Positions 1,054 to 12,975 of a stretch of DNA of 25,606 nucleotides are shown piece by piece. The position numbers and the translations under genes are program-made. This DNA comes from a virus (taxonomy: Duplodnaviria > Heunggongvirae > Uroviricota > Caudoviricetes), in IMG/VR virus record IMGVR_UViG_648276669_000005, positions 1-25,606 of that record. One strand, written 5' to 3'. Each line of letters starts with the position of its first letter. Positions within the stretch are counted from its first letter, which is position 1. Under the pieces are notes generated by a model. The model had not been told where the DNA came from. It ran no database searches and worked only from the letters and a program-made list of their open reading frames with translations.

Positions 1054-1135
1054 AAAAAAGTCCTCATGTCTGAGGACCAAATTTAACTGTATGTTTGAAC
1101 AGTGGTCAATGTTTAAAGATCTTCAATTAAACATT

Positions 1136-2467
1136 TCATTGGAGCAAGAAAACTTTTAAGGTGTTTTTGAATATTCTAACAGGGTCTTCTACACCTGCAT
1201 TTCCTTTTAAAATATGATAATCACTTATTTCAGCCCATCTGTTTTTTTCATCGTTTTCAGAAGGAAGTAAAGGAGAACCTTCTGGCATATATTTATAAGT
1301 TATACCAAATAATGCATAATAGTAGATGTTGATGTTATATTGATCTGTCTGATATGGGAGTCTATTAACACCGAAGAAATTGATTATTAATTGTGCATCT
1401 ATTTTATCTTCTACGTAGTTAAGGGCCAGTTCACGACCAAACGAATAAAGAATTACTGCAAGGGTTCGATAACAGCAATAGCCTGGTATAAATTTATTGC
1501 TGATTTCATTTTGAGATAAAATTTGATAAATTTCTAGATATCTTGATAAGGTTTCAACTTCCCGTAGCGACAAGCCTTTTAGTTCGATAAATTTTTGAAC
1601 TATATGAATACTACTTTCTCCAATTTCTTTTAGTCTTTCAGACTCGTTACATAGCATTCTAAAATGAGAGTTCGAAGCCAAAATTTTATCGTAATTGTTT
1701 TCAGTGAAAGTCACTGGCAGGCTGTAAGTGAATTTTATAAATTTATCAAGATATCTTTCTGAGTCAACACCTGCACCGTAAATATGATTTATTGATGCTT
1801 TCAATTGTGAGATGTTAGCAACTAACAAGAAGTTAAGATTTTCAGTGTCAAAAACATGTTTTATATTTTCGATGATAGAGATGGCAAAGCTTGGTTTACA
1901 ACGGTCAAGTTCGTCAATGATAATTGTTATTTTATTTTCGCTAGTTAGTTCAGCAAGTACTTCCTTGAGAGCAAGCAAATGTTTCTTTGCTTCAATATGA
2001 TCATCAAGCAGTGCTTCTACAGTACCATCTATAGCTGAGTTAGCCGCATCTTTAATAGCATCTTCGAATTCATCCGCAATATCATCTGCATTTTGTTTTA
2101 AAATCCACCCAGCGCCAGCTTTGAGTACAGTTTTAAGTCCAAATCTCAATGCTGGTAATGCCTTTGATATTAATTCCTTCTTTTCACTCTCTGGATATAA
2201 TGCAACTATTGCAGCCATTATAGTAAGTATGGGAGCATCATTATGATCTTCAGTAAATGCATCAATATATACTACTTTATGCCCAGATTCATTTTTTTCA
2301 ATCAATGCCGCTAATTTTTTTGAAAATTCGGTTTTACCGGTACCCCAGTCCCCATCGATAACAATAGGGGATATTTTTAAGGGGGACTCGAGTAAGCTTA
2401 TTATTTTTTCAGCAATGATTTTTCTATTATACTCATCTCTGTTTTCAAAAGTCATATCATTATTCAT
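1136..2467 (-). CDS. KAP-family-like P-loop NTPase (cargo gene)
   Basis: Walker A GDWGTGKT with the Trp typical of KAP NTPases, Walker B IIIDELDRC (KAP-type hhhhD[DE]LDR). No obvious TM insert. First ATG at 2467; 2476 is TTG. Strongly AT-rich relative to phage backbone. Confidence 0.6.
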   Translation of the reverse strand: MNNDMTFENRDEYNRKIIAEKIISLLESPLKISPIVIDGDWGTGKTEFSKKLAALIEKNESGHKVVYIDAFTEDHNDAPILTIMAAIVALYPESEKKELISKALPALRFGLKTVLKAGAGWILKQNADDIADEFEDAIKDAANSAIDGTVEALLDDHIEAKKHLLALKEVLAELTSENKITIIIDELDRCKPSFAISIIENIKHVFDTENLNFLLVANISQLKASINHIYGAGVDSERYLDKFIKFTYSLPVTFTENNYDKILASNSHFRMLCNESERLKEIGESSIHIVQKFIELKGLSLREVETLSRYLEIYQILSQNEISNKFIPGYCCYRTLAVILYSFGRELALNYVEDKIDAQLIINFFGVNRLPYQTDQYNINIYYYALFGITYKYMPEGSPLLPSENDEKNRWAEISDYHILKGNAGVEDPVRIFKNTLKVFLLQ

Positions 2468-2478
2468 ATGAAGCAACC

Positions 2479-2687: not shown

Positions 2688-3251
2688 TTAATAATTGACG
2701 ATCGCGCTTCTAATTTTTCCTATGATATCAATTTCATCTATTTTGCATTCAAAGGAACTGCTGCCGCCATCGACATTTAGACGACGTCCCGGCAGTCTTG
2801 TCAGATTCCTGATAGCAACCTCGCCATCAATATCAACGATCCACTTACCATCACGTACATCCTCATAATCCGAATCACAGATAAACTCTGATGCGCCATC
2901 GATCACAACAAAAGGTTTTTTTAGTTTTTCAGGCAAAAAGTTGTTGTCGAAAATGTAGTAACCATCAGGAAGTAGTTTTCCGCTTGATAAAATCTTCCTT
3001 TCGATCTCTTTTGTGTTTTCTTTTTGTGAACTTTCTTTTGAACCTTGCCCAGTAGTTAGCCACTCTAGCGACGTGCCGGTTTCAAGTGCACATTGGATTA
3101 CCCATTCTGCCGGGAATGAATCACGCATATAGCGCGTGGCTAAGGTGCTTTTAGAAATGCCCAAATGATCACACAAAGCTTGTCTTGTCTTGAAACCATA
3201 GGCTTCAACCATGCGCTCTATGGCCCCACGACCGCCTTTTTCCAAATTCAT
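2688..3251 (-). CDS. cI: 186-type CI immunity repressor
   Basis: N-terminal ...VEAYGF...[16 protein letters not shown] and C-terminal ...[37 protein letters not shown] match my recollection of coliphage 186 CI. ATG at 3251 preceded by GGAG. Confidence 0.8.
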
Positions 3252-3376
3252 GGTCACTCCAAGTGAACTTTTACCTTGACGATTTCATGATGTGATCGTA
3301 TGTTTGCAGTGTTCACATAATACAAACGATCAGTATTCATCCTGATTAATCATTGCTAAAAGAGGAATGTTGCATC
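3252..3376. promoter_or_regulatory. lysis/lysogeny switch region between cI and apl (expected pR/pL promoters and CI operators)
   Basis: 125-bp divergent intergenic region between the repressor and the first early gene; contains partial inverted repeats (gatcgtatgtttg ... caaacgatcag). Operator positions not resolved. Confidence 0.4.
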
Positions 3377-6285: not shown

Positions 6286-8696
6286 GCCATGCCGATATGA
6301 GCAACTGCTGCGGCTTTAACGAGGCTGCCGCATCGTTCTCATGGAACAGCCCGAAAAAGGCCATTAACCCTTATCTGGACCCGGCGGAAGTTGCGCCGGT
6401 TTCTGCGCTTTCAAACCTGATCACTCTGTACGCTGCCGATAACGAGCAGGAACAACTGCGCCGCGAGGCACTGAGTGATCAGGTCTGGGAGCGTTATTTC
6501 TTTAATGAATCCCGTGATCCTGTCCAACGCGAAATAGAGCAGGATAAGCTCATTAGCCGGGCAAAGTTGGCGCATGAGCAGCAGCGTTTTAACCCGGACA
6601 TGGTCATTCTGGCAGACGTCAGCGCCCAGCCCTCCCATATCAGCAAGCCGCTGATGCAACGTATTGAATACTTCAGCAGCCTGGGCAGGCCAAAGGCTTA
6701 TTCCCGCTATTTACGTGAGACGATTAAGCCATGTCTGGAACGACTGGAGCATGTACGCGACAGCCAGCTATCTGCATCTTTTCGTTTTATGGCAAGCCAT
6801 GTAGGGCTGGACGGCCTGCTGATTCTGCCTGAAATGAGTCAGGATCAGGTGAAACGCCTGTCTACCCTTGTCGCTGCGCATATGAGCATGTGCCTTGATG
6901 CAGCTTGTGGTGATTTGTATGCCACCGATGACGTTAAGCCAGAAGAAATCCGCAAGACATGGGAAAAGGTGGCAGCGGAAACCCTGCGTCTGGATGTCAT
7001 CCCGCCTGCGTTTGAGCAACTCCGCCGGAAAAGAAACCGCCGTAAACCCGTGCCCTATGAACTCATTCCGGGTTCGCTGGCGCGTATGTTGTGCGCCGAC
7101 TGGTGGTACCGGAAATTATGGAAAATGCGTTGCGAATGGCGGGAAGAGCAGTTGCGTGCTATCTGCCTGGTCAGCAAAAAAGCATCTCCCTATGTCAGCT
7201 ATGAAGCCGTGATGCATAAACGTGAGCAGCGCCGCAAGTCACTGGAGTTTTTCCGTTCTCATGAACTGGTGAACGAAGAGGGCGACACGCTGGATATGGA
7301 AGACGTGGTAAACGCCAGCAGCAGCAACCCGGCGCACCGCCGCAATGAGATGATGGCCTGTGTTAAAGGTCTGGAGCTTATCGCGGAAATGCGCGGTGAC
7401 TGCGCCGTTTTCTACACCATTACCTGTCCGTCACGTTTCCATTCCACGCTCAATAACGGCAGACCAAACCCAACCTGGACAAATGCGACGGTAAGACAAA
7501 GCAGCGATTATCTGGTCGGCATGTTTGCTGCATTTCGTAAGGCGATGCACAAAGCCGGGTTGCGCTGGTATGGCGTGCGGGTGGCTGAGCCGCATCATGA
7601 CGGTACAGTTCACTGGCACCTGTTGTGTTTCATGCGCAAAAAAGACCGCCGCGCCATTACTGCATTGTTGCGTAAGTTTGCCATCCGTGAAGACCGCGAG
7701 GAACTGGGTAATAACACTGGTCCACGCTTTAAATCTGAGCTGATAAACCCGCGCAAAGGAACGCCGACAAGCTACATCGCGAAATACATCAGTAAGAACA
7801 TTGACGGGCGTGGTCTGGCTGGCGAGATCAGCAAGGAAACGGGTAAATCCCTGCGTGATAACGCTGAATACGTTAATGCCTGGGCGTCTCTGCATCGTGT
7901 TCAGCAATTCCGCTTCTTTGGTATTCCGGGACGTCAGGCTTACCGTGAACTTCGCTTGCTGGCTGGTCAGGCGGCAAGGCAACAGGGTGACAAAAAAGCA
8001 GGTGCGCCGGTACTGGATAACCCGCGCCTTGATGCCATTCTGGCTGCTGCTGATGCTGGTTGTTTTGCCACCTACATCATGAAGCAGGGCGGCGTACTGG
8101 TTCCCCGCAAATATCACCTCATCAGAACCGCTTATGAAATCAACGAAGAGCCAACCGCCTATGGCGATCACGGTATTCGTATTTATGGCATCTGGTCACC
8201 CATTGCAGAGGGCAAGATCTGCACTCATGCAGTGAAGTGGAAAATGGTTCGTAAGGCCGTTGACGTTCAGGAGGCGGCAGCCGACCAGGGCGCTTGCGCC
8301 CCTTGGACTCGTGGCAATAACTGTCCCCTTGCTGAAAATTTGAACCAACAGGAGAAAGATAAATCAGCTGATGGGGACCCCAGAACGGACTTTACCCGCA
8401 TGGATGACAAGGAGTTGCACGATTACCTGCACAGTATGAACAAAAAGGAGCGCCGGGAACTGGCTGCAAGGTTACGCCTGGTGAAACCGAAACGGCGTAG
8501 AGACTACAAACAGCGAATTACAGATCATCAGCGACAGCAGCTCGTCTATGAACTGAAGTCCAGAGGATTTGATGGCAGCGAGAAAGAGGTCGATTTACTC
8601 CTTCGCGGTGGCAGTATTCCGTCAGGAGCAGGCCTGCGTATCTTCTATCGGAACCAGCGTTTGCAGGAAGATGATAAGTGGCGGGATCTGTATTAA
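6282..8696 (+). CDS. A: replication initiation endonuclease gpA (rolling-circle type)
   Basis: 804 aa; HUH-type metal motif (TVHWHLLCF) and tandem-tyrosine motif ([10 protein letters not shown]) characteristic of P2 A protein. Confidence 0.85.
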
Positions 8697-8788
8697 TTAC
8701 GCGGGTTAACAATTCGTGCTCTTAATAATACCAGGCATATCAGGCTGATGAACGTAAAAAAACGTTTTACATCAGTAAGATTATTATA

Positions 8789-8808
8789 TACTGTAAATAT
8801 AAACAGTG
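8789..8808 (+). promoter_or_regulatory. LexA (SOS) box overlapping a sigma70-like promoter
   Basis: tactgtaaatataaacagtg = CTGT-N8-ACAG with AT-only spacer, 17/20 to consensus TACTGTATATATATACAGTA; TTTACA -35-like hexamer upstream; about 40 nt before an AGGAGG-led ORF. Confidence 0.6.
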
Positions 8809-8849
8809 GTTATACGTACAGCATTGCGTGTGGTGTCATAGGAGGAAAG

Positions 8850-9038
8850 ATGCAGGACTATTTTTTGGAGTCTTTGAAGCTCCAGCGCATTGATTTTTTT
8901 CTTAAGCTTGTAGCGGCTAGTGAGTGTAGTGATGAAGAGAAGGGGCTGGCTCTGCAGTGGGTTTCTGAATTGACTGATGAACTCATGGCAAAAATCAGAA
9001 GCCACGAATACAACCGCTCAATGGATGTCATCAGCTGA
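8850..9038 (+). CDS. small SOS-operon protein, function unknown (possibly Tum-like antirepressor fragment)
   Basis: 62 aa from ATG 8850 with AGGAGG RBS; the longer ORF-track version (8748) would read through the LexA box and is rejected. Confidence 0.45.
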   Translation: MQDYFLESLKLQRIDFFLKLVAASECSDEEKGLALQWVSELTDELMAKIRSHEYNRSMDVIS

Positions 9039-9048
9039 GGTGACTTTT

Positions 9049-9282
9049 ATGCGCATTGAAATAATGATCGATAAAGAGCAGAAGATTAGCCAGTCTACAC
9101 TGGACGCCCTTGAATCCGAGCTTTACCGCAATCTGCGCCCCCTGTATCCCAAAACGGTAATTCGTATCCGCAAAGGTAGCTCTAACGGTGTGGAACTGAC
9201 CGGACTGCAACTGGACGAAGAAAGAAAACAAGTGATGAAAATTATGCAGAAGGTGTGGGAAGACGACAGCTGGCTGCATTAA
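9049..9282 (+). CDS. DinI-family protein
   Basis: 77 aa from ATG 9049 (GAGGTGA RBS); MRIEIMIDK...LDALESEL.R...P...VIRIRKG....ELTGL..EERKQVMKIMQKVWEDDSWL parallels E. coli DinI as recalled (MRIEV...IDALAGEL.RR...P...V.VRY....SVIG...EDKQRISEILQETWESADDWF). Confidence 0.65.
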   Translation: MRIEIMIDKEQKISQSTLDALESELYRNLRPLYPKTVIRIRKGSSNGVELTGLQLDEERKQVMKIMQKVWEDDSWLH

Positions 9283-9460
9283 GAAACGTTGCCCCCAGGA
9301 GGATTCATTCTGATGGGGGCTAGTTTGGGCAACGAGTGAAATAAGGTGTAAGGTCATTTTGATAAATGATCGTCTGCTTTGTGCAAGATGCAAACGTTTC
9401 TTCTGCTAACTTTTGTTAATTAACGAATGGCAGACTAATTCGCAACGGATAATCTGAATT

Positions 9461-9489
9461 TTGTAAGATTATGGGCATTTCTATAAAAT
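9461..9489 (+). promoter_or_regulatory. candidate sigma70 promoter for the 647-aa NTPase gene
   Basis: TTGTAA, 17-bp spacer, TAAAAT in AT-rich intergenic DNA about 100 nt upstream of ATG 9597. Confidence 0.25.
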
Positions 9490-9596
9490 TTACTAATAAT
9501 AACCTTACAATGTACACTACCGATTGAATTTTCCATAGTTGGCCTTTGGCTCTACTTACCATCTATGTTTATGTATTTTATCAAAATGGACTAAAA

Positions 9597-11489
9597 ATGA
9601 ACAATACGTACATCAAAGACTATATAGAATATTACCTTAGCCTTACAACTGAACCTCAATACGCCATTATGCTTAAAGGTGCTTGGGGATCAGGTAAAAC
9701 TTGGTTCATTGAACAAGTTCTTGAAGAATATAAGCAGAAGAATTCAGAGTTTAAATTTCTAAAAGTGAGTTTGTATGGCGTCAACTCTATTAAGCAGATT
9801 GAAGATGAGTTCTATCGTCAACTTCATCCTGTCCTATCAAACAAAGCCCTTATCTTTGGTGCAAATGTACTAAAAAATACGCTTAAGGCTACTTTCAAGA
9901 TCGATCTCAATGGCGATAATAAATCTGACGTTGATGTCAATACCAATGTTCCCACCATTAATCTTAACGATTTTAGTAGAAAACCAGATGGTTTTGTGCT
10001 GGTCTTTGATGATATCGAGAGAGCTGGTATAGATTTACCAATTTTATTTGGATATATAAACCACTTTGTAGAAGTAAACGGATACAAAGCGATCTTGGTT
10101 GCCAATGAAGAAGAAATAATCAATAGAGAAAAGCGAATAAATAATGATGATGAGAAATCTAGCAGCGAATATATGAGAACAAAAGAAAAGCTTGTTGGTA
10201 AAACATTTGAAGTAACGTCAGATTTACATAGTGCTTGTAATGTTTTTTTGGGCGTAATTAGCAGTTTACACGTTGCTAATATATTTAAAGAAGATATGCA
10301 GGCCATAGAAGACATCTATGTGTCGGCGAAATATAATAATCTAAGACACTTGAGGCAGTTCTTTCTTGATGTACAACGCATCATTTCCCTTTTGGGAAAT
10401 AAATATGTCAGCAACGACGATTTTATGAGGGTATTTTTCCAGCAGTTGTTAATTTTCTCGATAGAGTACCGGGGAGGGAACCTTAACTACGAGGATTTCG
10501 ATTCAATCAGCAATGTTAATTATGGTATGTTTTTAGGTAAAGAGCGTACCAAAACTAAGTATGACATGATCGCCGAGAAATATTCATCTCCTGTATTAAC
10601 CGAGAAGTTACTGGATGGTGCGTACTGGAGGGAGCTAATCTGTGATGGAAAGGTAACGAGTGAACTTCTCGCTCAGTTGGATATTACGCGATTTTTTAGA
10701 AGCACCGATGCCCAAGCATGGGAGTATTTGTGGAACTATCGAGAACTTAATGAAACTATGCTTAATGAGCAGTACGCCATTGCCAAGGATAATCTATTTT
10801 CAGGTAAGATCACTTCCTTAGGTGAACTCCTGATGACCGCGAGTATTTTGCTGGACATGGCGAAAGAAGGTCTAACAACAGATGATGTTCATGATCTCAT
10901 AAATGAGACAAAACAGAATATAAATAATTATTATAATAGACTTAGAGCTGAAGATATACATAAGGAATATGCGCAAACGCATTATAACGAATTAAGGGCA
11001 TGGCGTGGCTTTGGTTTTCTTGACAGGGATAGCGATGAATTCAAACTCATTATTGAGCATATTGAGATAGCGAAGAAGAAACGGTTTGATGAATCAATTC
11101 CGGAATTTGCGTTGCAGTTCAGCGATGAGTTGCAAAGGGGAAACTTATCGTTTGTATCTGAATTGAGTCATTCTAATAATAGGCAGTTAAATCTTCATAA
11201 CGTGCCTTTTTTACACTTGGTTCCTCCTGAAGTTTTCATTGAAAGCTATAGGAAACTTGACCCAGTCCTCATGAGGAAACTGGCATTTAGCTTGCGGAAT
11301 CGTTATTCTGATGGGGATGCTAGAACCAGACTGACCGAAGAATACAACTGGTTGATTAACCTAAAAGAGATAGCTGTAGATTTCACTCAAAACGCAGCCA
11401 ATAACTCCTTTCAGGTTTTTCACGTAAAGTTTTTTATTGACTATGTACTAACTAGCGCAATCAAATTCTTTACTGAGGGAACTGATTAA
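9597..11489 (+). CDS. KAP-family-like P-loop NTPase, 630 aa (hotspot cargo; candidate defence protein)
   Basis: Walker A GAWGSGKT (KAP-type Trp), Walker B VLVFDDIERAG, large C-terminal region without recognisable motifs. First ATG at 9597; track start 9546 is TTG. AT-rich. Confidence 0.6.
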   Translation: MNNTYIKDYIEYYLSLTTEPQYAIMLKGAWGSGKTWFIEQVLEEYKQKNSEFKFLKVSLYGVNSIKQIEDEFYRQLHPVLSNKALIFGANVLKNTLKATFKIDLNGDNKSDVDVNTNVPTINLNDFSRKPDGFVLVFDDIERAGIDLPILFGYINHFVEVNGYKAILVANEEEIINREKRINNDDEKSSSEYMRTKEKLVGKTFEVTSDLHSACNVFLGVISSLHVANIFKEDMQAIEDIYVSAKYNNLRHLRQFFLDVQRIISLLGNKYVSNDDFMRVFFQQLLIFSIEYRGGNLNYEDFDSISNVNYGMFLGKERTKTKYDMIAEKYSSPVLTEKLLDGAYWRELICDGKVTSELLAQLDITRFFRSTDAQAWEYLWNYRELNETMLNEQYAIAKDNLFSGKITSLGELLMTASILLDMAKEGLTTDDVHDLINETKQNINNYYNRLRAEDIHKEYAQTHYNELRAWRGFGFLDRDSDEFKLIIEHIEIAKKKRFDESIPEFALQFSDELQRGNLSFVSELSHSNNRQLNLHNVPFLHLVPPEVFIESYRKLDPVLMRKLAFSLRNRYSDGDARTRLTEEYNWLINLKEIAVDFTQNAANNSFQVFHVKFFIDYVLTSAIKFFTEGTD

Positions 11490-11919: not shown

Positions 11920-12975
11920 ATGCTTAAAACAAATAAGGTATTTATTGACACACAAACGTACGTAAAGGCTGGTCTTCATTTTGAGGGGGTAGCATTTAAA
12001 GCTTTCCATGAATTATGTGCGAAAGGTGATTTAGTCTTAATTACAACTACAGTTGTAGAGAGAGAAGTAAAAGGTAAAATAGAGGAATCAATAAAGGATG
12101 CTCTGCAGGCTATAAACACAGTACAAAGAAAAGCTAGGCTTTTGAATAGTATTGATAATGGACCGCTCCATGGTTTTTTTCAGCAATTTAACGAACATGA
12201 AATTCACGAAGCAGCACAAAAAGTTTTTGATGATTTTTTGAAAGGATGTCACGCCAAATTAGCTACAATAGAAGTGATAGATCTTAATGAGGTTTTAGAT
12301 AAATACTTTGGCAAAGAACCACCATTTGGGCAAAATAAGAAAAAAAGTGAGTTTCCTGATGCAATCACTTTAGCTGCGGTAGAGCGATTTGTTAATGATG
12401 AAGATGTGTATATCATTTCTGAGGATAGTGACTTAAAAAATTATTGTGATGGTAAAAACAATCTTCATCAAATTGATTCACTTGATAAGTTTCTAGGTGA
12501 ATACAATACGCATACAAACGAATTAAGTAATAAATTGATGCAGTTTATCGAAAGCAAACGTGAAGACATAAGAGCGGACGTAATTGCCCAACTCAATGAT
12601 GCCGATGGATATAACGTTTCAACTTGGGAAGACGCTGAATTGGATTCATTTGAAGTCGTCAATATTGATGACTTTGAACCATCAATAATTAAGATTGACA
12701 ATAATTATTGTCTAGCGACCTTCTCTGTTTCTGTAGATTTTGAAGTTACTGTTTCTGGTCCAGACTTTAATAATGGGTATTGGGATAGCGAAGATAAAGT
12801 AATGATTCCAATGGAGACAACCACACGAACTGAAGTTCAAGAGATTAGTTTCGATATTGAAATTGAAGTTATGTATGAAATCGAGGATGGTGAATTAACA
12901 GATATCGCATTTGATGTGAATATTGATAAGTTATCCCGAGGGATTGAGTTCTCTATTGAAGAAAATAATTTTTAA
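11920..12975 (+). CDS. hypothetical protein with N-terminal PIN-like nuclease fold and acidic C-terminal domain (cargo)
   Basis: 351 aa; N-terminus KVFIDTQTYV (PIN motif-1-like hhhDT), VVEREV, later DAITLAAVERFVNDEDVYIISEDSDL giving the spaced acidic residues of PIN domains; C-terminal third very D/E-rich. AT-rich with own AT-rich upstream region. Confidence 0.45.
   Translation: MLKTNKVFIDTQTYVKAGLHFEGVAFKAFHELCAKGDLVLITTTVVEREVKGKIEESIKDALQAINTVQRKARLLNSIDNGPLHGFFQQFNEHEIHEAAQKVFDDFLKGCHAKLATIEVIDLNEVLDKYFGKEPPFGQNKKKSEFPDAITLAAVERFVNDEDVYIISEDSDLKNYCDGKNNLHQIDSLDKFLGEYNTHTNELSNKLMQFIESKREDIRADVIAQLNDADGYNVSTWEDAELDSFEVVNIDDFEPSIIKIDNNYCLATFSVSVDFEVTVSGPDFNNGYWDSEDKVMIPMETTTRTEVQEISFDIEIEVMYEIEDGELTDIAFDVNIDKLSRGIEFSIEENNF

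What the first reader, a model, noticed from the sequence alone, without database searches (positions are those of the whole stretch)
8760..9282. LexA-box-controlled operon with a DinI-like gene, analogous to the 186 SOS/tum operon
A near-consensus LexA box (CTGT-N8-ACAG, AT-only spacer) overlaps a promoter just upstream of a 62-aa ORF and a DinI-family gene, placed like the SOS-inducible antirepressor operon at the right end of phage 186. Together with the 186-type CI this predicts LexA-dependent, RecA-cleavage-independent induction. The two ORFs are in different frames and overlap, so they could be a split version of a longer Tum-like protein.
Basis: partly seen in the sequence, partly recalled or inferred. 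Interest (0 to 1): 0.5.

Follow-up and report, generated by a model that had tools for sequence, protein, structure and literature searches.

The report
LexA-controlled split Tum antirepressor operon
This is the DNA-damage switch of a Fels-2/186-type prophage: host LexA keeps a 62-aa antirepressor gene and a DinI-like gene silent until DNA damage, and the identical gene has already been shown by others to be required for induction, so the finding is correct but ordinary.

Summary
A 17/20 match to the LexA consensus lies at 8789-8808, overlapping the -10 of a promoter 153 nt downstream of the replication gene A. It precedes a 62-aa ORF (8850-9038) and a 77-aa DinI-family gene (9049-9282). No shuffle of the window reaches 17/20, and the box sits at the same place in ten related phages.

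The 62-aa protein is 100% identical to ECHS_RS04495 of E. coli HS prophage DuoHS. The promoter and operator through box 1 are also identical. Deleting that gene ('tum'), or making lexA non-cleavable, abolishes mitomycin C induction (PMC12055606). PsP3 annotates the same pair as tumA/tumB, and the split of tum in Fels-2 and PSP3 is published (PMC3121763). A profile comparison links the 62-aa ORF to residues 3-44 of 186 Tum (96%, E 6e-9). The DinI gene aligns with Tum 71-145.

Corrections:
- The genes do not overlap; ATG 9049 leaves a 10-nt gap.
- There are two LexA boxes overlapping by 1 nt, as in colicin operators, where 186 has one.

I also note that near-identical TumA proteins travel with very different CI repressors that share one conserved N-terminal patch.

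The parts
8766..8771 (+). -35 hexamer TTTACA of the tum promoter (equivalent of 186 p95)
   Evidence: Read from the sequence. TTTACA or TTCACA lies 17-18 nt upstream of TACTGT in 8 relatives with the same layout, although their spacers differ.
8789..8794 (+). -10 hexamer TACTGT, which is also the first 6 nt of LexA box 1
   Evidence: It lies 17 nt after the -35. The same hexamer is annotated as the -10 of p95 in phage 186.
8789..8808 (.). LexA box 1, TACTGTAAATATAAACAGTG (core CTGT-N8-ACAG at 8791-8806)
   Evidence: 17/20 to consensus; 0/200 shuffles reach that. It is present at the same place in DuoHS, Fels-2, MLG42, SopEphi, ST437phi4.1, ESSI-2, ev015, 186 and PsP3.
8804..8823 (.). LexA box 2 with a degenerate left half (core GTGG-N8-ACAG at 8806-8821), overlapping the box 1 core by 1 nt
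   Evidence: GTGG-N8-ACAG is conserved in all six Fels-2-type relatives while the spacer and downstream leader vary. Window 8784-8825 is 85.7% identical to the promoter of colicin-like bacteriocin operons on hundreds of small plasmids. Colicin operators of this form bind two LexA dimers (PMC2994835). The 20-mer scores only 13/20 to the consensus on its own.
8840..8845 (+). Ribosome-binding site AGGAGG of the 62-aa gene
   Evidence: Read from the sequence. It is conserved in the alignment.
8850..9038 (+). tumA-type antirepressor gene, 62 aa, predicted two-helix hairpin
   Evidence: 100% identical to ECHS_RS04495, the 'tum' of DuoHS. phrog_698, E 6e-38. hhalign to 186 Tum residues 3-44, probability 95.9%. 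AlphaFold2 pLDDT 90, helices 2-23 and 28-61.
9037..9042 (+). Ribosome-binding site GAGGTG of the DinI-like gene, overlapping the tumA stop codon
   Evidence: Read from the sequence. It lies 6 nt before ATG 9049.
9049..9282 (+). tumB, a DinI-like gene of 77 aa
   Evidence: PF06183, 81.3 bits against a cut-off of 24.2. phrog_189. 41% identical to 186 Tum 71-145. Matches E. coli DinI structure 1GHH/7YWA, E 2.7e-6.
9291..9320 (+). Hairpin GCCCCCA...TGGGGGC followed by TAGTTT; possible weak or partial terminator of the operon
   Evidence: Fold of -24.5 kcal/mol with z = -1.5 only. It was not called by the terminator scan. Low confidence. Homology with DuoHS and Fels-2 ends at the stop codon just upstream.
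2688..3257 (-). 186-type CI immunity repressor, the presumed target of the 62-aa protein (likely start ATG 3251)
   Evidence: Pfam Phage_CI_repr plus Phage_CI_C. 37% identical to 186 CI, 71% to DuoHS CI and 41% to Fels-2 CI.

Best explanation
This is the SOS-induction module of a Fels-2-type (Peduoviridae, 186-like) prophage.

In the lysogen, host LexA occupies a double operator (8789-8823) that covers the -10 hexamer, the likely transcription start and the first ~20 nt of the leader of the tum promoter. The two-gene operon is therefore silent.

DNA damage activates RecA, LexA cleaves itself, and the operon is transcribed. The 62-aa two-helix protein (TumA type) binds the 186-type CI repressor and stops it holding the lytic promoter. 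The prophage thus switches to lytic growth without any cleavage of CI. The co-transcribed 77-aa DinI-like protein binds RecA filaments and modulates the SOS signal. It is an accessory, not the trigger.

Shown here: the anatomy, the homologies, the conservation, and identity to the tested DuoHS gene.
Shown by others on the identical gene: tum and cleavable LexA are both required for induction.
Inferred: LexA occupancy of both boxes, direct TumA-CI binding in this phage, and the role of the DinI-like protein.
For: - The LexA box is far better than chance and conserved in position across 10 phages whose flanks have diverged.
- The layout matches the annotated p95/LexA site of 186.
- The 62-aa protein is 100% identical to ECHS_RS04495, and the promoter and operator are identical through box 1.
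- That locus tag is the 'tum' deleted in PMC12055606. Both delta-tum and lexA(Ind-) abolish MMC-induced lysis and virion foci.
- PsP3 annotates tumA ('UV induction of prophage') and tumB.
- PMC3121763 states that Fels-2 and PSP3 have tum split in two and that the upstream half is the antirepressor in PSP3.
- hhalign links the ORF62 family to 186 Tum residues 3-44 (95.9%, E 6e-9).
- The DinI half aligns with Tum 71-145.
- CI is 186-type, with no S24 peptidase hit.
- ESSI-2 and ev015 phages carry the TumA homologue behind a LexA box with no DinI gene, so TumA is the self-sufficient unit.
Against: - Nothing was tested on this exact prophage.
- Its CI is only 71% identical to DuoHS CI; the C-terminal part is 57% identical.
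- Box 2 alone is a weak match (13/20), and four substitutions separate this window from DuoHS between 8816 and 8828.
- BLASTP finds no similarity between ORF62 and 186 Tum. The link needs profiles.
- The DuoHS deletion could in principle be polar on the DinI-like gene.
- Bunny et al. 2002, the primary Fels-2 paper, could not be read.
Confidence: 0.9

Rival explanations
1. The DinI-like protein, not the 62-aa protein, drives induction. It might do so by stabilising RecA filaments or acting on CI. On this view the 62-aa ORF is a leader or coupling ORF.
For: The annotation of 186 says that truncated, DinI-only Tum products 'modulate SOS induction'. The DuoHS deletion of the upstream gene could be polar.
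Against: - In PSP3 the antirepressor activity maps to the upstream gene.
- ESSI-2 and ev015 keep the LexA box and the TumA homologue but have no DinI gene.
- The 62-aa family is conserved as a confidently folded helical hairpin.
- The DuoHS deletion was in-frame, from start codon to stop codon.
Confidence: 0.04
2. The LexA-like sequence is a fortuitous AT-rich palindrome. On this view the two genes are a constitutively expressed moron whose DinI homologue serves the host.
For: No LexA binding data exist for this window. CTGT-N8-ACAG occurs twice in the window, and 4 of 100 shuffles give at least 2 matches.
Against: - 17/20 to the consensus was never reached in 200 shuffles.
- The box is retained at the same promoter position in 10 phages down to 14-16% TumA identity.
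- lexA(Ind-) blocks induction of the phage carrying the identical box-1 operator.
Confidence: 0.02
3. The real genes are the longer ORFs: a 96-aa protein from ATG 8748 and a 101-aa overlapping protein from ATG 8977. The pair would then be a frameshifted pseudogene of a single Tum.
For: Both long ORFs exist. Some gene callers emit 84-109-aa versions of the first one.
Against: - ATG 8748 lies upstream of the promoter and operator.
- Both short starts have strong Shine-Dalgarno sequences.
- 43 of the 120 closest database homologues are exactly 62 aa. Among the 87 cluster representatives found in 1.84 billion proteins, none has a DinI-sized extension after the TumA match.
- The Pfam DinI match and the DinI structure alignment start at the MRIEI start.
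- The pair is conserved at 97-98% DNA identity in E. coli, Klebsiella and Salmonella phages, and matches are found in 1125 of 5426 complete E. coli genomes.
Confidence: 0.02

Closest known systems
tum of E. coli HS prophage DuoHS (ECHS_RS04495 plus DinI-like ECHS_RS04500), PMC12055606
   Same: The 62-aa protein is 100% identical. The -35, -10 and LexA box 1 are identical. Gene order is the same, after the replication endonuclease gene. The requirement for tum and for cleavable LexA has been shown experimentally.
   Different: - Four substitutions lie in or next to box 2 (8816, 8822, 8826, 8828).
- CI is 71% identical: the first 62 residues are the same and the rest is 57% identical.
- The cargo downstream of the DinI-like stop codon is unrelated.
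Fels-2 STM2728 / STM2726.1 and PsP3 tumA / tumB
   Same: These are split Tum arrangements behind a LexA box. Fels-2 TumA is 97% identical and has the same double box. PsP3 explicitly annotates tumA as 'similar to 5' end 186 tum; UV induction' and tumB as similar to dinI. The split is discussed in PMC3121763.
   Different: PsP3 TumA belongs to the 186-type sequence family (14% identical to the window's) and has a single LexA box. Fels-2 CI is only 41% identical to the window's.
Phage 186 SOS operon (p95, LexA site, tum, orf97)
   Same: - It holds the same genomic position after gene A.
- The -10 TACTGT is embedded in the LexA box.
- The N-terminal antirepressor part and the C-terminal DinI-like part are homologous to the two ORFs here.
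- CI is of the same family.
- 186 also makes a DinI-only product, from an internal GTG that aligns with Met1 of the window's DinI-like protein.
   Different: 186 Tum is one 146-aa polypeptide with a ~25-residue linker. It has a single LexA box. orf97 follows in the operon, whereas this window has unrelated cargo with its own promoter-like site.
Colicin / klebicin SOS operators (two overlapping LexA boxes)
   Same: The operator sequence is nearly the same: TACTGTAAATATAAACAGTGGTTATACGTACAG here against TACTGTATATAAAACCAGTGGTTATATGTACAG. In both, the two 16-mers share one base. Such operators bind two LexA dimers and give very tight repression with no basal expression (PMC2994835).
   Different: In the colicin-like operon examined, the boxes lie just downstream of a separate -10. 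Here box 1 contains the -10. The downstream genes are unrelated.
Gifsy-1/2 dinI-gfoA/gftA operons of Salmonella
   Same: These are LexA-repressed operons that pair a DinI homologue with a small antirepressor, which inactivates a non-cleavable repressor by binding (PMC3121763).
   Different: The gene order is reversed (dinI first). The antirepressors and repressors belong to other families, and the phages are lambdoid.

Membership tests
186-type SOS (tum) operon of P2-like phages | LexA box overlapping the promoter of the operon | tested here: met
   17/20 to the consensus at 8789-8808; the -10 TACTGT lies inside the box, as annotated for p95. This is tested by sequence only; LexA binding was not tested.
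186-type SOS (tum) operon of P2-like phages | Located between replication gene A and the right-end or late region | tested here: met
   Gene A ends at 8696 and the operon spans 8766-9282. The same order holds in 186, PsP3, Fels-2 and DuoHS.
186-type SOS (tum) operon of P2-like phages | Protein homologous to the N-terminal (antirepressor) part of Tum | tested here: met
   hhalign probability 95.9%, E 6e-9, columns 3-44 against 3-44; reversed control 0.2%. BLASTP alone finds nothing.
186-type SOS (tum) operon of P2-like phages | DinI-like C-terminal part of Tum | tested here: met
   41% identity to Tum 71-145, E 3e-24.
186-type SOS (tum) operon of P2-like phages | Both parts in one 146-aa polypeptide | tested here: not met
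   There are two genes in different frames with a 10-nt gap. This matches the known split variant (PsP3 tumA/tumB, Fels-2). Among the 87 cluster representatives of the ORF62 family, none has a DinI-sized extension after the match.
186-type SOS (tum) operon of P2-like phages | Cognate 186-type CI without a self-cleavage (S24) domain | tested here: met
   Pfam Phage_CI_repr plus Phage_CI_C only. 37% identical to 186 CI.
186-type SOS (tum) operon of P2-like phages | Antirepressor binds CI and blocks operator binding; induction needs LexA cleavage | not testable with these tools
   The genetic requirement has been shown for the identical gene in DuoHS. Direct binding has been shown only for 186 Tum (Shearwin 1998, as cited).
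DinI family (Pfam PF06183) | Score above the Pfam gathering threshold over the whole domain | tested here: met
   81.3 bits against 24.2; profile positions 1-63 of 63. Aligns with the solved DinI structures 1GHH/7YWA.
Chromosomal DinI (NCBIfam NF007893, equivalog) | Score above the equivalog cut-off | tested here: not met
   42.7 bits against a cut-off of 111. It is a phage DinI-like paralogue, not the host dinI.
Colicin-type double SOS operator | Two 16-nt LexA cores overlapping by one base | tested here: met
   Cores are 8791-8806 and 8806-8821. The region is 85.7% identical over 42 nt to the operator upstream of a colicin-like bacteriocin gene.
Colicin-type double SOS operator | Binding of two LexA dimers | not testable with these tools
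   Needs a footprint or gel shift with box 1 and box 2 mutants.

The most novel reading that the evidence does not exclude
The Fels-2 subgroup has replaced the single LexA box of 186 with a colicin-type double operator. This would set a higher, later and more all-or-none threshold for induction.

Separately, the almost invariant 62-aa TumA (84-100% identical) may recognise one conserved patch of the CI N-terminal domain ([24 protein letters not shown], 76-100% identical). The rest of CI has diverged to 27-58% identity. If so, one prophage's TumA could induce heteroimmune Fels-2-like prophages in the same cell, as the Gifsy antirepressors do.

I found neither point described in the papers I could search.
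Probability: 0.4. Interest if true: 0.35.

Novelty: already known. Interest (0 to 1): 0.15.

Why it matters
The result predicts that this prophage is inducible by DNA damage through LexA and an antirepressor, not through repressor cleavage. The same module matches in 1125 of 5426 complete E. coli genomes.

There is a practical gap in annotation. The 62-aa gene that carries the function has no Pfam or NCBIfam family. RefSeq labels it 'hypothetical protein', and some records call it 'levan regulatory protein'. Automated annotation therefore misses the induction switch.

The double operator and the TumA/CI covariation are small, testable additions to a well-understood system.

Tried and rejected
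- BLASTP of ORF62 against 186 Tum gave no alignment. A first hhalign with shallow families gave only 57.6%. Adding the diverse representatives raised this to 95.9%.
- Pfam and NCBIfam have no family for ORF62.
- A Foldseek search of the ORF62 model against the PDB gave no hit below E 0.9, only generic helical hairpins.
- An Rfam scan of 8600-9700 found nothing.
- The generic promoter/terminator scan missed the tum promoter. It called only a doubtful hairpin across the tumA stop codon (9027-9044) and promoter-like sites at 9461-9500.
- MAFFT of the ten promoter regions aligned the single box of 186, PsP3, ESSI-2 and ev015 with box 2 of the Fels-2 group. That alignment should therefore not be read column by column.
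- Bunny et al. 2002 (PMC151935) is not held in the library.
- The Salmonella SOS-regulon paper used a strain without Fels-2.
- The 96-aa and 101-aa ORF readings were rejected; see the rival explanations.

Full report
**What is in the sequence.** The 804-aa replication gene A ends at 8696. The portal gene lies further on, on the minus strand, so the finding sits where phage 186 has its SOS operon. The 153-nt intergenic region contains -35 TTTACA (8766-8771), a 17-nt spacer and -10 TACTGT (8789-8794). The -10 is the first half of TACTGTAAATATAAACAGTG (8789-8808), which matches the LexA consensus at 17/20. CTGT-N8-ACAG occurs twice in the window against 0.30 expected. The 17/20 site is unique: the next best is 14/20, and no dinucleotide shuffle out of 200 reaches 17/20. 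A strong RBS (AGGAGG, 8840-8845) precedes ATG 8850 and a 62-aa ORF ending at 9038. A second RBS (GAGGTG, 9037-9042) precedes ATG 9049 and a 77-aa ORF ending at 9282.

**The two proteins.** The 77-aa protein is a DinI-family member:
- Pfam PF06183, 81.3 bits against a cut-off of 24.2.
- It aligns end to end with the solved E. coli DinI, 1GHH/7YWA.
- It falls below the NCBIfam equivalog cut-off for chromosomal DinI, so it is a phage paralogue.
- It is 41% identical to residues 71-145 of 186 Tum (E 3e-24).

The 62-aa protein has no Pfam or NCBIfam family but belongs to phrog_698 (E 6e-38). AlphaFold2 predicts a two-helix hairpin with mean pLDDT 90. Its PDB matches are non-specific. BLASTP does not connect it to 186 Tum. 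A profile built from its family does, once it includes the diverse representatives found among 1.84 billion proteins. That profile aligns with the 186 Tum N-terminal family over columns 3-44 of both, with probability 95.9% and E 6e-9. A reversed-sequence control gives 0.2%. Both halves of Tum are therefore present, as two genes.

**Overlap and frames.** The two genes are in different frames. Only the longest ORF (from ATG 8977) overlaps the first gene. The start at 9049 is supported by its RBS, by the MRIEI N-terminus shared with DinI, and by the annotation of every relative. The genes are separated by 10 nt.

**Already known and already tested.**
- The region is 97-98% identical to Fels-2, RE2010 and many Klebsiella and E. 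coli P2-like phages. Matches are found in 1125 of 5426 complete E. coli genomes.
- Fels-2 annotates the DinI gene as 'similar to TumB of PsP3'.
- PsP3 annotates tumA ('similar to 5' end 186 tum; UV induction of prophage') and tumB.
- Lemire et al. 2011 state that Fels-2 and PSP3 have tum split in two. [quoted passage not shown] 2002.
- The most direct evidence is from E. coli HS. The 62-aa protein is 100% identical to ECHS_RS04495 of its prophage DuoHS, and the promoter and box 1 are identical.
- That locus tag is the 'tum' deleted in the Phollow study. There, both delta-tum and lexA(Ind-) abolished mitomycin-C-induced lysis and virion formation, while the SOS reporter still fired in delta-tum.

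**The repressor.** The window's CI (2688-3257, minus strand) has the 186-type HTH and C-terminal domains. It has no other Pfam hit at E <= 0.001, so no S24 peptidase domain. It is 37% identical to 186 CI. This supports induction by antirepression rather than by RecA-stimulated cleavage.

Immediately after box 1 lies GTGGTTATACGTACAG (8806-8821), a second 16-mer sharing one base with the first. Alone it is a weak site (13/20). It is nevertheless conserved as GTGG-N8-ACAG in all six Fels-2-type relatives, while its spacer and the downstream leader vary. Window 8784-8825 matches the promoter of colicin-like bacteriocin operons on hundreds of small plasmids at 85.7% identity. In the one plasmid examined, the match lies 43 nt upstream of the bacteriocin gene, and the two operators are almost superimposable. 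[quoted passage not shown] 186, PsP3, ESSI-2 and ev015 have one box. I infer that the Fels-2 group is repressed more tightly and induced later than 186. I did not find this described, but I could not read the primary Fels-2 paper.

**TumA works without DinI, and with many CIs.** Cronobacter phage ESSI-2 and Escherichia phage ev015 have a LexA box and a TumA homologue (37-43% identical in the alignment) with no DinI gene. Converging genes follow directly. Across ten phages, TumA identity tracks one segment of the CI N-terminal domain, window residues 34-62 ([29 protein letters not shown]):
- Phages whose TumA is at least 84% identical keep this segment at 76-100%. The first 31 residues compared are only 48-58% identical, and the linker plus C-terminal domain 27-39% (DuoHS: 100% and 57%).
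- Phages with diverged TumA have a diverged segment.

This is consistent with TumA contacting that patch, and with possible cross-induction between heteroimmune relatives. It is correlation from ten genomes, not proof.

**End of the operon.** A GC-rich hairpin (9291-9320) followed by TAGTTT may act as a weak terminator. Homology with DuoHS and Fels-2 stops exactly at the DinI-like stop codon. Downstream there is different cargo with its own promoter-like site, instead of the orf97 of 186.

**Verdict.** This is a textbook 186/Fels-2-type LexA-antirepressor module, and its key gene has been tested experimentally in an identical copy. Novelty is nil for the main claim. The double operator and the TumA/CI covariation are minor, testable refinements.

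Noticed in passing
window 1083-1111 (minus strand), upstream of the integrase ATG at about 1052: The second CTGT-N8-ACAG of the window (1087-1102) fills the 17-nt spacer of a good promoter-like site, TTGACC-N17-TTAAAT. About 30 nt further on is the integrase start. In between lies a GTCCTCA...TGAGGAC hairpin followed by a T-run, whose 3' arm holds the int RBS. It could be a LexA-controlled int promoter, or chance (14/20 to the consensus). The junction occurs in only 9 complete E. coli genomes, which are too similar to test conservation. DuoHS and Fels-2 have no such box.
   Followed up: partly
window 1136-2476 (minus strand): A KAP-family P-loop NTPase gene sits between int and cI. It matches the PADLOC defence candidate PDC-S20 (E 1e-171; Pfam KAP_NTPase E 4e-51). 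DuoHS and Fels-2 have no such gene at this spot.
   Followed up: partly
window 9597-11489 and 11920-12975 (plus strand): The cargo directly after the DinI-like gene is a second KAP NTPase (PADLOC PDC-S49, E 2.5e-160) and a PIN_12-domain protein that has no PADLOC match. They occupy the variable locus where 186 has orf97 and where relatives carry other genes. A promoter-like site lies at 9461-9489.
   Followed up: partly
window 2688-3257 (minus strand) compared with L003 13701-14270: CI is mosaic relative to DuoHS. The first 62 residues are identical and the remainder is 57% identical. This suggests recombination within cI between the DNA-binding and oligomerisation domains.
   Followed up: partly
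L004 / L015 (Cronobacter phage ESSI-2) and L005 / L016 (Escherichia phage ev015): These phages have the LexA box and a TumA homologue but no DinI-like gene. In ESSI-2 the TumA ORF is not annotated at all.
   Followed up: partly
L011 (K. pneumoniae p1878-9k, NZ_CP072999.1) 2501-2549: A 9.1-kb 'plasmid' record carries the P2-like methylase and A genes and the tum promoter up to the end of LexA box 1 (window 8760-8808, 98% identical). The match stops there, and a group II intron reverse transcriptase gene follows about 360 nt later. This may be an intron insertion at the operator or an assembly artefact.
   Followed up: no
window 8850-9038 and its database relatives: The experimentally supported antirepressor is named 'hypothetical protein' in RefSeq and 'levan regulatory (domain) protein' in UniRef and some phage records. 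Gene callers often extend it to 84-109 aa from upstream starts that lie outside the promoter.
   Followed up: yes
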